Below, piece after piece: positions 56,229-62,300 of a DNA stretch of 64,000 nucleotides. The position numbers were made by a program. The number at the start of each line of letters is the position of its first letter. The first letter of the stretch is position 1. The DNA is from Octopus sinensis (Eukaryota): positions 4,774,001 through 4,838,000 of the forward strand of contig NC_043018.1 in the NCBI RefSeq assembly GCF_006345805.1, given 5' to 3'.

Positions 56229-58101
56229 ACGTATGCATGTTTCATCTTTCATCGATTATTTTATTGTCATTTCATTTTCTATCTTAACACTTTTGGGGTT
56301 AAGATAGAAAATGAAATGACAATTAGATAATCGATAAAAGATTTAAATGAAAAACGTTAAGAACCAAAGGCAATAATAAAATATAGTAAACTCGCGGGAC
56401 CTGTGAATATTTCACAGAATTAATGGTCAACTCATTGGGCTGCGTCTGAAAACTTTATCCCAAAAGCCTGAAAGTGTAGCCTGTGTTATGTCTGTATCAA
56501 AAGAGAGTCGTTCATTTGCGCTATTCATTGAAATGTGAAGAAAATTGGAATACAATGATCCCTCAATGAACTTTATATACTTTATGCACAATTTTATAGA
56601 CTTAATATACAACACTCTCCCTCTTTTTACTCTCTTTTTTCTTTTGCTCTTCATCTTTCCCTTCAACTAATTACATGAAAGCATAACAGACAGGCTAAGT
56701 AACAGAGTAAAAATACTTAGTTAAAAAAAATAACACATTTCACTCACCACCACCTCCCCTCCCCATCTCCCATCACCTCCCTCTTCCCTCCCTACTCCTT
56801 CAACTAATCACATGGGAGCGTTACAGACAGGCTAAGTAACGGAGAAACAAGTAAAATTATTATGACAATTAAGGAGCTTATAAAAGGTACTGAAATGAGC
56901 AGGTAATTAAAAAAAAACGATCAAAATATTAAAAGAGATCGCCAAAACAGACTCGCACAACTTATATACACCATGATATCAACTTGTCACTTTCGTTTCT
57001 TACTCCCTTCTTTTTTTTATTTATACTTGGTCGTATCCGTCGCTACGCTGCCGGGAAAATATTTATTAATATCATGCACGAACCATCATAAATTGCTCAA
57101 AGTGAAAGTCTATTTTAAGTCTGTGTTGCGTTGTCAATATGTTAAAGACATAAACACACACGCGCGCATATATATATAATATATATATATAATATATATA
57201 TATATAACATATATATATATATAATATATATATATATAATATATATAATATATAATATATATATATATAATATATATATATATATAATATATATATATAT
57301 ATAACATATATATATATATAATATATATATAATATAATATATATATATATATAGTCTTTGTTTAACTGTCATCTCTTCCACTTTTTTCGTTTGAGTCAAT
57401 TAATAATGTTTGATTTGTTTATCTTGTTTTGTTTTTCATTTAAGATACAAACTCCGAGTGAAAACGACAGCAACGATAAGATCAACACCAATAACGAGAA
57501 AAAGAAAGACGTTACGAAATCAAAAATGAAAAACCGTTCCTTGATGTTTCTTTTACAATGCGTTACTATTCTTCACTTTGTTACGGCTCAGGATCCAGTA
57601 ACAGAATCAAAGGATCTAGCCATCAATATGGGCGCATTAGGTATGTTGTAATTTGGTTAGATTTGGGGAAAAAGTGACCGAAAGAGTGCCGTGAAATTGC
57701 TGTGAGGATTGGCGTATGCAACGTTTCGGACAGTATCCTTTCTAAGATTGAAATTATAAGAAGGGGGGAAAGGTGGGGTGGAGAAAAGGGCTGCAGAGTT
57801 TTACATCGACGATTTTTTAAACAATTGGCTGCAAGTGATGCGGAAATCAAGACAATGTGTAGACAGAAATTAGTAGGAGATTAGAAAGAGAAACTAGATG
57901 AGAGATGAAGAAGAAGGAAAAAGAAATGAAAAGAAGAGAAGTGGGTGGGGTGGAAATGCGGTGAAAGATAAACTGAAGGATAAAAAATTGGATTATTGAA
58001 TGAAAGTGTGGTGAAAGAGTAGTAGAAGGGGAAACATTGATTGAAACCCAGCAACACCGTGGTTCCGAGTTTGAATATGATACATTGTTCCTTCCGTTTA
58101 C

Positions 58102-58132
<31 letters not shown>

Positions 58133-58301
58133 GTCCTATGATGTACAGAGACGCTCCCACACACTGATCAATGGTTAACGGAAGGGTTCGTTGCGTTGAA
58201 GTGGGGGGGGGTGACATACGTTATAGGGGGCTGCAAAAGGGATCGGCAACATGATAGACGGTTTTTCCAATATAAGGTGCACGGCAAAATTTGCAGCGTG
58301 C

Positions 58302-58336
<35 letters not shown>

Positions 58337-59038
58337 CGAATCGATTATAAAAATAAAAGCGAAAACAACAAAAAAGATGCACACGGTAAATGTATTAGGT
58401 TTACGCTCAGTTTAAGATGGAAAAAAATGTGGGGTGTGTAACGTTTCGTGCATGGCTCTTCGTCAGAAGGAGGAGAGAGGCAAGATCCGGAGAGAAGGAA
58501 AAAAGTCCCAAGTAAAGCATGTGTGGTTACATACACACACACACACATCAATAAAGTTAGATAAGGCCGGTCTATGGGACTACCCTGGGTTTCACGTTCA
58601 TAAAGCGCTTAGCTTTACGGCATATGATCAGATTCCAAACCTATTGGCTTATGGCCTCTCTAGAAAATGGATGAGGAAGTAACCTCGCTACTCAATGTCA
58701 ACAACAGGGGATTGTCTCCCTTTGGCTATCGATCGTAAGGGACCCTATTATTTTGTGGGTTCCAGTAAGCCAGCAAAAAGTTCCGTTCTGGAGTTAAGAA
58801 TGTTCCTGGGTCGAGAGAGTCCTTTCGTATCCTCGCCCATTCCGCTACAGTTTACAACGCTTAGTCCCGTTTATGTAGGGCCTGGATTTTCTAGGATTCT
58901 CCATGATATTGGCTCCTTAATTGGAATTTCAACATCAACAACAGGGTATGTATGTATGTATGTATGTATGTATGTATGTATGTATGTATGTATGTATGTA
59001 TGTATGTATGTATGTATGTATGTATGTATGTGTGTGTG

Positions 59039-59082
<44 letters not shown>

Positions 59083-59314
59083 ATGTATGTATGTTTGTAT
59101 ACGGGCAGATTTATGTTTTGTTTTATATATATCCTTCAAAACTTCCATGCTTCCTGAGATTCGCCAACACTACACTTGATTTTCTCCCCTCCATACACAC
59201 ACAAGCATGTTCACTTTCCAGACATTTCTACACTACTGCATGTACTTTATATGCCCTTTCTGACAAGTTGTGGTGCACCTGAGCACTGTATACAATAATT
59301 TCATTATATATATA

Positions 59315-59362
<48 letters not shown>

Positions 59363-62300
59363 ATATATATCTTCTCATGCATATACTCGCATATCTAGAC
59401 ATGCTCTTACATATTTAAATGATAAATATATAAGTGATGGATTGGATCTGTCGTCTTCGAATCAGCTTTCTCTTTTTCTGGTTTTGAGAAGCTTAATTTC
59501 TCAAGATTGGTATTTAGGCAGTGTGTTACATATATCCCAGCTTCCCAATAATTACAGGCATAAACCTGAACTTGTAATCTGGCTAGAGTAACTGCAGATT
59601 TCTCAGTTGTTCAGCGTCGGTATTCTCTTTTCCACTGATCATCAGCTTTATGTCAACATCCACTGGGCAGCAGCTCATTTCCACAAGTGGGGCATAGTTT
59701 CTCTTCTCTATCCCAAATGATTACATCAAGTCTATTGTGTGTGTGTGTGTTGACGTTTTTCGTTTTTGCTTTTTCTTCTTTCATTCGGTATCACTTCTTC
59801 CCTTATTTCCTTGGAGAATTTTTGACCAGTCTCTTTGGTTCATCTGGTTTATCATTATAACAATTATTTTTCGTCCTGGTATAAGGAGAAAAGTAAGCGA
59901 GACTTCAAGAAACGTATTACGGGAAGATTTTTGTAAACTGTATTTTCTGAATCTGAGGATGCACCATTGAATCGTAGGGAGGGGTCAGTGTCGCCCAGTG
60001 CATCCCTTTAGAGACGGGCATGTGTCTGTCCCTACTGGTCCATACGTTTACATGGCGGCTTCAAATGAAACCACCAAGTTAATTATTTAGCTTTCCGTAT
60101 AGTTTGTTACTTATTGTAGAGCTCATCGATATTGCCAGCATCCATACTTCATCTAAAATAAACCTTTTTTCTTATCTCTCTTCAGATTCGATGAATTGTG
60201 ATAATTCTAGCTACGCAATAATCCCACCAAAAGCAACTGTTTCACTACTGCAAGACGAAGTGAAACCGATGCTGCTTAACAATGATGTTGAAGAGACGAT
60301 ATTTGAGAACGTCAAAGAAGAAATGACGATAGTAAAGGGCGATATCAAAAATACGGTTGATAGAAAGCACGGAGAAAACATGACGACGGCTGAAAAAGAA
60401 GACAAAGAGACGATGTTTGCAAAATTCGTCCAGTATATAAAGTCCTGTGCTACTCCGGGCAACGCTTCCTTAATTTTCCCTTCTATATACGTATTGTTTG
60501 TTGTTGTCGTCACTGGGCTACAGATGTCATCCTATTTTTAATTCTTGCTTAAGTCGAAGAAAAAACAAAAACTGGTTCAGGAAATACAGAGTTTAAAAGG
60601 AAGAATAAACTGGAAACAAGTTTTATAGAAACAAATAATTGAAAGTGGGAAGTTTAAAGAACTTCTGTTCATTTTTAGATTCTAAATAAACCTTTCGCTA
60701 TTCATTTATTTATTTTTTTTTTTGCCGATAACCAAGATATTCTAAATGTTCTTAAGACAAATTGTTTTGGAAAGTTTGTTTTCGTAGAAGTATCTTGGAA
60801 ATAACTAAAGAAAATCGGAAAAAATAACAAAACAGTTTTGAAGAAAATAAAGTTGTTTTCTTTTCGTGTTGATGTTGTTATTTAGGTGGCAAAACGTGGA
60901 AAGGAATCCAATTGTTATAACACCATTACACTATCACATTATCTCTACCCTATTACATATCCACCCTTTATTAAACTATTTACTACACATCTACCCTATC
61001 ATACTACCGCCAGTCCATTGCATATTTGCCGCATTCCCATATCTGGTTGTTTGGTTTGCTCTCGAGTGCAAGTCATAACTCTACTTGCTTTCTCTTTTCC
61101 TTTTTGGACACATGAGCTCCATATTTGTTGCTAACAACATAATCAAATATCAAATCAATGTTGTCATCTTTGTCTTGTGTACTAAAAATAGCCACTCTGG
61201 ATAGACTTCTTTCAGATTTCTTCAGCTCTAAGTAACTAAGTGAAAACGCCAACTAAATGAAAGATATGCTTTTCTCTTTCGTTTCTTTCTTACTTTCTCT
61301 TTCGTTTCTTTCTTACTTTCTCTTTTATTTCTTTCTTACTTTCTCTTTCATTTACGAATGTACATTACGCACACACACGTAATAAACATCAATACATACA
61401 TGTGATGGGTTCACCCATTATCTCCCTATTTGCTATCACTGTGATGAACATTTAAGGATTGGGAAGGATTTGAGGTGGAGGTAATCTGGAACCGTAGGGG
61501 GGTAACTTGAAATCGATTTCAAATTACCCCGCGGATAATCTGAAAGCGATTTCAAGTTACCGGGGTTTAATCTGAATGGGAGGTAATCTGAAATCGCTAT
61601 ACCAGTAACTATCGCAACATCGTCAAGGCATCGGTCTGGGCAGCAGTCATCTATGCTGGATCTGGTATTCTCCCGCTATCCAAGATCAGTGTCAGGCTTA
61701 TCTATGTGCGCCCCTCTTGCCAAGAGTGATCAGGCGGTCCTGAAGTTCGTCATGCACACAACTTTTTCTGCGCCCACGACTACTTCGCTGCCACGTAGAG
61801 TCTTCTCTGCAATCAATCTTGAAATTCTAACCGAAGATTCTGCGCTTCTGGACTGGCGATCCCTGATGACGATGTCCTCAGTTGACGAACTATGGTCGTC
61901 CCTCAAAGCATATGTAATCTGGTTGACTGACCAAGCAGTTCCCGTTGGGCTTCCCAAGAAGAAGAAACACAAGCCCTGGGTGACAAAGAAGGTTAAACGA
62001 GAAATTCGACTCAGAGATATTGCTTGGGCTGAATTAGAAAATCAAGATTCGACTGCAGCTTTTGTGGTATACAAAACTCAACGAGACCGAGCCGTGAAAA
62101 TTTAAAAGGAAGAACGCTTCAGATATAAATGCAGAATCGCGGCAAACGCCAGTCGCAATCCAAAAACCTTCTTTGCCCATGTCCGACGGAATTCCCGCTT
62201 GAACAACCAAATTGCAACGTTGGTAGACTCAACAGGCATATCGATTGAGGACCCTTATCAGCAGAGTCAGTTATTTGCCGAGGCTTTTTCGACAATTTTC

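What the first reader, a model, noticed from the sequence alone, without database searches (positions are those of the whole stretch)
57526..60541. Unrecognised two-exon gene for a small secreted, probably GPI-anchored protein
Seen: canonical phase-1 splice sites join a signal-peptide exon to a 356-nt exon, giving 156 aa. The predicted cleavage is TA|QD. The mature chain has only two Cys (C43, C126), sequons N45-S-S and E-N-M-T, and an acidic/basic helical middle. A small-residue site (G130/N131-A-S) lies about 25 aa from a hydrophobic tail. Inference: I recognise no family, so this may be a lineage-specific cell-surface protein. The ORF track misses it because it is split.
Basis: partly seen in the sequence, partly recalled or inferred. 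Interest (0 to 1): 0.7.

Follow-up and report, generated by a model that had tools for sequence, protein, structure and literature searches.

The report
Annotated octopus orphan surface-protein gene
The two-exon gene is real, but public databases already list it as an uncharacterised Octopus sinensis protein: a small, octopus-only secreted protein, probably held on the cell surface by its tail, with no known function.

Summary
The anatomy is as described. Exon 1 (57526-57640) ends TAG|GTATGT. Exon 2 (60186-60541) follows ...TCTCTTCAG|. The join is phase 1 and gives 156 codons plus TAA.

The gene is not unrecognised. A search with exon 2 alone returned NCBI "uncharacterized protein LOC118767561 [Octopus sinensis]", 156 aa and 100% identical, with the same junction. 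It also returned an O. bimaculoides orthologue (156 aa, 80%), an O. vulgaris model and one unnamed 117-aa relative (67%).

Nothing else matched among 5.8 billion proteins or 1.84 billion cluster representatives. Pfam, PDB sequences and the ESM Atlas gave no family.

The signal peptide and the last 28 residues are conserved far better than the ectodomain. C43 is not conserved. The N45 and N131 sequons are.

A GPI anchor fits simple sequence rules, but no GPI predictor was available. A short-tailed single-pass membrane protein is not excluded.

Verdict: an ordinary, already annotated, lineage-restricted gene of unknown function. Interest is low.

The parts
57526..57640 (+). Coding part of exon 1 (115 nt): Met1 to Leu38 plus the first base of codon 39.
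   Evidence: donor TAG|GTATGTTG. It is 38 of 38 identical to residues 1-38 of the NCBI protein P0003.
57526..57588 (+). Predicted signal peptide, residues 1-21: MKNR, a hydrophobic core, then VTA before the Q22 cut.
   Evidence: Rule-based reading and the hydropathy profile. It is 20 of 21 identical in O. bimaculoides and in O. vulgaris. No SignalP run was possible.
57641..60185 (+). Intron of 2545 nt, GT...AG, phase 1, rich in microsatellites.
   Evidence: One search shows (GT)14 at 58104-58132, (TA)16 at 58303-58334, (GTAT)39 at 58946-59100 and (TA)33 at 59305-59370. The region has no second copy elsewhere in the window.
60186..60541 (+). Exon 2 coding part (356 nt): the last two bases of codon 39, residues 40-156, and the TAA stop.
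   Evidence: It is 118 of 118 identical to P0003 residues 39-156.
60203..60211 (+). N45-x-S47 glycosylation sequon, conserved.
   Evidence: N45 and S47 are invariant in 4 of 4 aligned sequences.
60236..60265 (+). Conserved ectodomain block T56-K65 (TVSLLQDEVK).
   Evidence: 10 of 10 columns are invariant in 4 of 4 sequences. The low-confidence model draws a helix at 54-68.
60432..60433 (+). Internal donor-like site CA|GTATAT. The O. vulgaris model P0005 appears to use it; that model diverges after ...KFV.
   Evidence: P0005, with the sequence. That this site is the donor is my inference. The alternative 35-aa tail has no match in the window (best E 0.24).
60455..60538 (+). C-terminal 28 residues, P129-F156. 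They hold the small-residue site G130/N131-A-S, the 19-residue hydrophobic stretch 132-150 and the end QMSSYF. This is either a GPI-attachment signal or a membrane anchor.
   Evidence: 28 of 28 identical in both P0004 and P0006.
60604..60609 (+). First AATAAA after the stop, 63 nt downstream. A second lies at 60685-60690.
   Evidence: Its use as a polyadenylation signal is inferred.

Best explanation
This is the gene already annotated as LOC118767561 of Octopus sinensis. It is a two-exon gene found so far only in Octopus and one unnamed close relative, and it encodes a 156-aa precursor.

Inferred pathway:
- The N-terminal signal peptide takes the chain into the ER and is cut after Ala21.
- The ectodomain of about 100-110 residues is acidic and probably part helical, part disordered. 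It is N-glycosylated at the conserved Asn45.
- The protein is held on the outer face of the cell membrane by its C-terminal hydrophobic segment.
- The most likely route is replacement of that segment by a GPI anchor at Asn131 (or Ser125/Gly130). The other route is that the segment stays as a transmembrane helix with a six-residue cytoplasmic end.
- Conserved islands in the ectodomain (56-65, 70-74, 111-120) probably bind an unknown partner.

Shown: the gene model, its public annotation, its narrow taxonomic range, the lack of any known family, and the pattern of conservation.

Inferred: ER entry, glycosylation, the type of anchor, and any function.
For: Gene model and annotation:
- The splice sites and frame are canonical.
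- A search with exon 2 alone returned the 156-aa NCBI protein at 100% identity. It also returned O. bimaculoides LOC106878719 isoform X2 (156 aa, 80%), an O. vulgaris model (186 aa) and an unnamed 117-aa protein (67%).
- 3 of 3 full-length models read ...GA[L/S]-D-S-M-N across the junction.

Coding-type constraint:
- Against P0004, identity is 20/21 in the signal peptide, 73/99 over residues 22-120 and 35/36 over 121-156. Fisher p is 0.0014 for the tail against the middle.
- Against P0006, identity is 46/79 over 41-120 and 33/36 over 121-156, p = 0.0002.
- In the 4-sequence alignment, 48 of the 116 reference positions (M41-F156) that all four sequences cover are invariant. They include the blocks 56-65 and 111-120.

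Targeting signals:
- The signal peptide has MKNR, a 14-residue hydrophobic core and V at -3, A at -1.
- Omega-type triads S125-C-A, G130-N-A and N131-A-S lie 31, 26 and 25 residues from the end.
- They are followed by a 19-residue uncharged stretch (mean Kyte-Doolittle 2.27) and then QMSSYF, which has 0 K/R.
- By textbook knowledge (recalled), the lack of basic stop-transfer residues favours a GPI signal.
- Also recalled: a conserved N-A-S only 1-3 residues from the hydrophobic stretch is too close to the membrane to be glycosylated. That also favours a GPI signal.

Origin: the locus is single copy in the window and unlike the transposable elements that flank it.
Against: - Expression rests on the existence of three public gene models.
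- dN/dS could not be computed because no cephalopod DNA other than the window was available.
- Keeping the frame open is weak evidence. In a neutral simulation, 513 of 1384 sequences at 80% aa identity stayed stop-free, as did 283 of 1659 at 67%. Relatives were also found in protein sets, which hold only open frames.
- The last 28 residues are invariant. That is unusual for a GPI signal, which is removed and usually drifts (recalled). It points towards a retained, functional transmembrane helix.
- With N131 as the omega site, the spacer L134-Y140 is hydrophobic rather than polar.
- The AlphaFold2 model is unreliable (mean pLDDT 37.6, pTM 0.21), so the 'helical' ectodomain is not established.
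- The O. vulgaris model ends in a different tail with no hydrophobic stretch. A secreted isoform may therefore exist, or that model may be wrong.
Confidence: 0.7

Rival explanations
1. The protein is a type I single-pass membrane protein. The signal peptide is cut, but residues 132-150 stay as a transmembrane helix with a six-residue cytoplasmic end (QMSSYF). The invariant helix would then be the functional part, for example by packing against another membrane protein, as small single-pass accessory subunits do.
For: Residues 129-156 are 28 of 28 identical in both P0004 and P0006, while the ectodomain falls to 46/79. The stretch is 19 uncharged residues, and its core scores 3.42 on a 9-residue Kyte-Doolittle window. 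The model draws one helix at 132-155, at low confidence.
Against: There is no K or R after the hydrophobic stretch. P137 and G149 lie inside it. The conserved small-residue triad N-A-S sits just before it, as in GPI signals. No family of accessory subunits matched.
Confidence: 0.3
2. Alternative splicing gives two forms. One is the anchored form described here. The other is soluble and secreted: it leaves exon 2 at the internal site 60432|60433 and ends in a different 35-residue tail, as in the O. vulgaris model. This reading is compatible with the best explanation.
For: P0005 matches P0003 up to ...KFV and then diverges exactly at a GT in the window sequence (CA|GTATAT). Its tail has no hydrophobic stretch longer than 6 residues. 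Passages of bioRxiv 10.1101/2023.05.16.540928 say the O. vulgaris annotation used Iso-Seq and RNA-seq. NCBI calls the O. bimaculoides protein 'isoform X2', which implies another isoform.
Against: The alternative tail has no match in the 3.4 kb of window downstream (best E 0.24). The donor is a poor match to the consensus. The same model also takes an upstream start that O. sinensis lacks at that place, so it may be a longest-ORF artefact.
Confidence: 0.15
3. There is no functional protein. The frame is a chance or decaying ORF in a weakly transcribed, repeat-rich region, and gene-prediction pipelines carried it from one Octopus annotation to the next.
For: The window is full of retroelement fragments. 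The protein has no family, no confident fold and no relatives outside Octopus-like sources. A neutral model keeps the frame open 17-37% of the time at these distances.
Against: Identity is strongly uneven, at 28/28 against about 58-74% (p = 0.0002 and 0.0014). The signal peptide, the N45 sequon and the omega-type triad are all conserved. All three length differences in P0006 are whole codons. The locus shares nothing with the neighbouring elements.
Confidence: 0.07

Closest known systems
NCBI 'uncharacterized protein LOC118767561 [Octopus sinensis]' (P0003)
   Same: The protein is identical: 156 aa, 100% over both exons, with the same splice junction.
   Different: Nothing differs. The record carries no function, family or domain (Pfam column '-').
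O. bimaculoides LOC106878719 isoform X2 (P0004), the O. vulgaris 'Hypothetical predicted protein' (P0005) and the unnamed 117-aa protein P0006
   Same: These are orthologue-like relatives with the same length or architecture. The signal peptide is 20/21 identical (P0004, P0005) and the last 28 residues are 28/28 identical (P0004, P0006).
   Different: The ectodomain diverges quickly: 77/103 identical in P0004 and 49/83 in P0006. C43 is not kept. P0005 has an upstream start and a different tail. P0006 starts at M41, so it covers exon 2 only.
Small vertebrate surface or secreted proteins that the ESM Atlas placed nearest (CD24, LLCFC1, C1orf54 homologue)
   Same: They share only the general build: a short precursor with a signal peptide, a small ectodomain and, for CD24, a GPI signal (the CD24 point is recalled).
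   Different: Atlas scores of 0.78-0.82 are at chance level; shuffled proteins reach 0.8 a third of the time. The mature part alone gave no usable hit. Their Pfam families did not match. The ectodomain is rich in E, K and D, not in S, T and P.
Ly6/uPAR three-finger GPI proteins
   Same: They share the small size, the signal peptide and a C-terminal GPI-type signal.
   Different: That fold needs 8-10 conserved cysteines (recalled). Here only one mature-chain Cys (C126) is conserved.

Membership tests
GPI-anchored proteins (a class, not a homology family) | Cleavable N-terminal signal peptide | tested here: met
   A rule-based reading gives a basic n-region MKNR, a 14-residue hydrophobic core, and V at -3 and A at -1 before Q22. 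No SignalP run was possible.
GPI-anchored proteins (a class, not a homology family) | Omega site with small residues at omega and omega+2, 20-30 residues from the C-terminus | tested here: met
   S125-C-A, G130-N-A and N131-A-S lie 31, 26 and 25 residues from the end. G-N-A-S is kept in 3 of 3 sequences that have this tail. The rule itself is recalled, not taken from a trained predictor.
GPI-anchored proteins (a class, not a homology family) | Polar spacer, then a C-terminal hydrophobic stretch with no charged cytoplasmic tail | tested here: inconclusive
   The hydrophobic stretch 132-150 is followed by QMSSYF with 0 K/R, which fits. The spacer is polar only if omega is S125 (T-P-G-N-A-S). With N131 as omega the spacer is hydrophobic.
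GPI-anchored proteins (a class, not a homology family) | Actual lipid anchoring (PI-PLC release, loss of the C-terminal peptide) | not testable with these tools
   This needs an experiment. NetGPI and PredGPI were also not available.
Ly6/uPAR | 8-10 conserved Cys forming the three-finger disulfide core | tested here: not met
   The mature chain has Cys at 43 and 126 only, and C43 is not conserved.
Pfam FN3_Tor_3rd (PF23008), the only Pfam hit to the window's own exon peptides (P0001, P0002) or to P0003 | Score at or above the curated cut-off of 30 bits | tested here: not met
   It scored 14.3 bits (E 0.041) on exon 2 and 13.3 bits on P0003, and matched 1 of 4 family members.
Transposable-element-derived ORF | Similarity to element proteins, or several copies | tested here: not met
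   No element domain was found. There is no second copy in the window by tblastn (best non-self E 0.35 and 0.55) or by blastn at E <= 1e-5. The whole genome was not searched.

The most novel reading that the evidence does not exclude
The most novel reading not excluded is this. The gene is a young or very fast-evolving octopod gene, and its invariant membrane segment and signal peptide carry the function rather than its ectodomain. One form of this is a small single-pass subunit that tunes another membrane protein. Alternative use of an internal donor would then switch between a tethered and a secreted form. It would be an example of a taxon-restricted gene built around targeting signals.
Probability: 0.12. 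Interest if true: 0.4.

Novelty: already known. Interest (0 to 1): 0.15.

Why it matters
As it stands, it matters little. The locus is already in the public annotation, and it is one of many uncharacterised, lineage-restricted small secretory proteins in cephalopod genomes.

If followed up, the contrast between invariant targeting segments and a fast-changing ectodomain would make it a modest candidate for work on taxon-restricted surface proteins in octopus. That work would need tissue expression and a test of GPI anchor against transmembrane helix.

Tried and rejected
Searches for a known family all came back empty:
- Pfam on both exon peptides and on all 4 family members gave only sub-threshold hits, each in 1 of 4 members.
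- A profile search of PDB sequences gave a best E of 1.
- The ESM Atlas gave a best score of 0.82 on the whole protein, which is chance level, and no usable hit on residues 22-131.

Structure: AlphaFold2 on the 4-sequence alignment gave mean pLDDT 37.6 and pTM 0.21. I therefore ran no fold search, since matches to such a model would be meaningless. I left the second structure job unused.

Searches for more distant or fused relatives:
- phmmer over 1.84 billion representatives found 2 proteins, both Octopus.
- A profile search over 5.8 billion proteins found the same 4 proteins among 1104 candidates.
- The 'longer' search found 0 of 238 candidates at E <= 0.1. The tool itself calls that weak evidence.
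- I did not run a 'shorter' search.

Other checks on the locus:
- I found no paralogue or repeat in the window.
- RNA structure does not explain the invariant 3' coding end. Folding 60186-60700 gave z = 0.35, and 63 of 100 shuffles folded at least as well. Only short, imperfect inverted repeats were found.
- The bacterial promoter and terminator scan is irrelevant for a eukaryote, and I disregard it.
- Open-frame retention turned out to be a weak test.

Literature:
- 0 papers hold either LOC identifier.
- I saw two broader searches as listings with abstract starts only. One found 171 papers with 15 listed, the other 23 papers with 15 listed. None of the listed titles or abstract starts names this gene.
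Expression tables there could mention the gene.

Not checked:
- dN/dS, RNA-seq junctions, tissue expression, SignalP and NetGPI.
- tBLASTn against other cephalopod genomes. The only open DNA collection holds bacteria and archaea, and I did not scan it.

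
Full report
**What is there**

The window is eukaryotic, about 40% G+C and full of microsatellites and retroelement fragments.

- An ATG lies at 57526 in the context TCAAAAATGA.
- The frame is open for 115 nt and ends at the donor TAG|GTATGTTG (57640|57641).
- The intron is 2545 nt and ends in a long pyrimidine tract with the acceptor ...TCTCTTCAG|ATTCG (60185|60186).
- A 356-nt second coding block ends in TAA at 60539-60541.
- AATAAA motifs follow at 60604 and 60685.

I translated the exons separately. Exon 1 gives 38 residues and exon 2 gives 117 residues plus the stop. 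The split codon g|at reads Asp.

Without splicing, the exon-1 frame stops three codons into the intron. The exon-2 frame has no ATG before M41. The default ORF list does show exon 2 as a 145-aa frame, so only the signal-peptide exon is hidden from an ORF track.

**It is already annotated**

A search with the exon-2 peptide alone against 5.8 billion proteins returned four proteins:

| Id | Record | Length | Identity to exon 2 |
|---|---|---|---|
| P0003 | NCBI "uncharacterized protein LOC118767561 [Octopus sinensis]" | 156 aa | 100% |
| P0004 | [quoted passage not shown] | 156 aa | 80% |
| P0005 | "Hypothetical predicted protein [Octopus vulgaris]" | 186 aa | 86% over 83% of the query |
| P0006 | unnamed source | 117 aa | 67% |

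P0003 matches both window exons at 38/38 and 118/118 residues. Its residues 36-44 read A-L-D-S-M-N-C-D-N across the junction.

All three full-length models use the same junction. Passages of the O. vulgaris genome preprint (bioRxiv 10.1101/2023.05.16.540928; 8 passages seen) say that its annotation used Iso-Seq, RNA-seq, Augustus, Genemark-ES and Transdecoder. The same passages quote these divergence times:
- O. sinensis and O. vulgaris split about 2.5 million years ago.

**It has no known family and a narrow range**

- phmmer over 1.84 billion cluster representatives found only P0003 and P0005.
- A profile of P0003, P0004 and P0006 found the same four proteins among 1104 candidates.
- A search among longer proteins found none among 238 candidates, which the tool calls weak evidence.
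- Pfam gave only sub-threshold hits. FN3_Tor_3rd scored 14.3 bits against a cut-off of 30, and three other families each matched 1 of 4 members.
- A profile search of PDB sequences gave nothing better than E = 1.
- The ESM Atlas placed small vertebrate secretory proteins nearest (a C1orf54 homologue, LLCFC1, CD24). Their scores of 0.78-0.82 are what shuffled sequences reach a third of the time. The mature part alone gave no usable hit.
- No paper in the library holds either LOC identifier.

The gene is single copy in the window and shares nothing with the neighbouring retroelements.

'Lineage-specific' needs a caveat. A protein that loses 20% identity in about 34 million years would be undetectable at the distance of squid and cuttlefish. 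Failure to detect homology is as likely as a recent origin. That is my inference.

**Pattern of conservation**

Identity to the O. sinensis protein is very uneven.

| Region | P0004 (O. bimaculoides) | P0006 (unnamed) |
|---|---|---|
| Signal peptide 1-21 | 20/21 | not covered |
| 22-38 | 13/17 | not covered |
| 39-66 | 22/28 | 19/26 |
| 67-120 | 38/54 | 27/53 |
| 121-156 | 35/36 | 33/36 |
| Last 28 residues (129-156) | 28/28 | 28/28 |

The tail is more conserved than the middle in both comparisons. Fisher p is 0.0014 for P0004 and 0.0002 for P0006. For the signal peptide against the middle, p is 0.042.

Inside the ectodomain there are invariant islands: T56-K65, N70-E74 and D111-V120 apart from residues 112 and 117. 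These flank a variable stretch at about 84-110. The three length differences in P0006 are all whole codons.

This unevenness is the best evidence here for selection on a protein. Simple retention of the open frame is not. Under a neutral substitution model, 513 of 1384 sequences at 80% identity stayed stop-free, as did 283 of 1659 at 67%. Protein databases also hold only open frames. Real dN/dS could not be computed for lack of orthologous DNA.

RNA structure does not explain the invariant 3' coding end (z = 0.35).

- The cleavage site VTA|QD fits the -3/-1 rule, after a basic MKNR and a 14-residue hydrophobic core.
- The two cysteines are not a conserved pair. C43 is Tyr in P0004 and P0006. 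P0004 has C46 instead, and P0006 has none in that region. Only C126 is kept.
- The N45-x-S47 sequon is kept in 4 of 4 sequences.
- N103-M-T is present in 2 of 4.
- N131-A-S is kept in the 3 of 3 sequences that have this tail.
- Residues 22-124 hold 20 D+E against 12 K+R.
- The AlphaFold2 model drew helices at 54-68, 73-80, 115-126 and 132-155. With mean pLDDT 37.6 and pTM 0.21 it is not reliable, so I ran no fold search.

**GPI anchor or transmembrane helix**

The tail reads K-S-C-A-T-P-G-N-A-S, then 17 hydrophobic residues (L134-L150, with P137 and G149), then Q-M-S-S-Y-F.

Simple rules (recalled, not a trained predictor) give omega candidates at S125, G130 and N131. These lie 31, 26 and 25 residues from the end.

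Two points favour a GPI signal:
- No basic residue follows the hydrophobic stretch.
- A conserved N-A-S sits so close to it that glycosylation is unlikely.

Three points favour a retained helix:
- The last 28 residues are completely invariant, which is unusual for a segment that is cut off.
- The core is very hydrophobic (3.42 on a 9-residue Kyte-Doolittle window).
- The spacer is hydrophobic if N131 is the omega site.

I put GPI at roughly even odds, a retained helix at about 0.3, and leave the remainder open.

**A possible second isoform**

The O. vulgaris model P0005 follows the shared sequence to ...K-F-V. It then diverges exactly where the window has CA|GTATAT (60432|60433), and it ends in 35 residues with no hydrophobic stretch longer than 6.

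That tail has no match in the window (best E 0.24). The same model starts 31 residues upstream, at a Met that O. sinensis lacks at that place. It may be a true secreted isoform or a longest-ORF artefact.

**Verdict**

It is wrong on 'unrecognised' and on the cysteine pair.

The locus is an ordinary, already annotated, taxon-restricted gene for a small secretory-pathway protein of unknown function. Nothing here would surprise a specialist.

No part of the window was taken for human, and the window contains no N.

Noticed in passing
window 34261-34400 (+): A 140-nt fragment matches eukaryotic large-subunit rRNA (Rfam RF02543, 107 bits, model positions 813-954 of 3401). It lies far from any rDNA array context, so it is probably a pseudogene fragment or part of a mobile element.
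   Followed up: no
window 62106-63737 (+), 42108-43034 (-), 50641-51096 (-), 55753-56241 (-): Three ORFs match the reverse-transcriptase domain RVT_1, with E-values of 6.9e-31, 1.5e-12 and 3.9e-13. A fourth gives a weak endonuclease-reverse transcriptase hit (E 0.031). The gene sits between retroelement remnants.
   Followed up: partly
window 16312-16821 (+), 19236-19907 (both strands), 24661-25086 (+), 29600-30211 (-), 49486-49884 (+): Long open frames share recurring peptide-like motifs, for example ...GARRGWQTATLGWCF... and ...YVPPTQVPDEAGKRPRSDG.... They look like a dispersed, internally repetitive element family.
   Followed up: no
window 57168-57353: An (AT)n microsatellite of about 186 nt ends 172 nt upstream of the start codon. 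Four more microsatellites lie in the intron, including (GTAT)39 at 58946-59100.
   Followed up: no
window 8649-9047 (+) and 13196-13588 (+): Two open frames carry acid-rich, protein-like stretches and have no Pfam match at E <= 1. They may be exons of a larger neighbouring gene.
   Followed up: partly
window 57407-57525 (+): The frame of the start codon is open upstream to 57355 and holds an in-frame ATG at about 57407. The O. vulgaris model uses a different upstream start. The NCBI models for O. sinensis and O. bimaculoides both start at the Met of 57526.
   Followed up: partly
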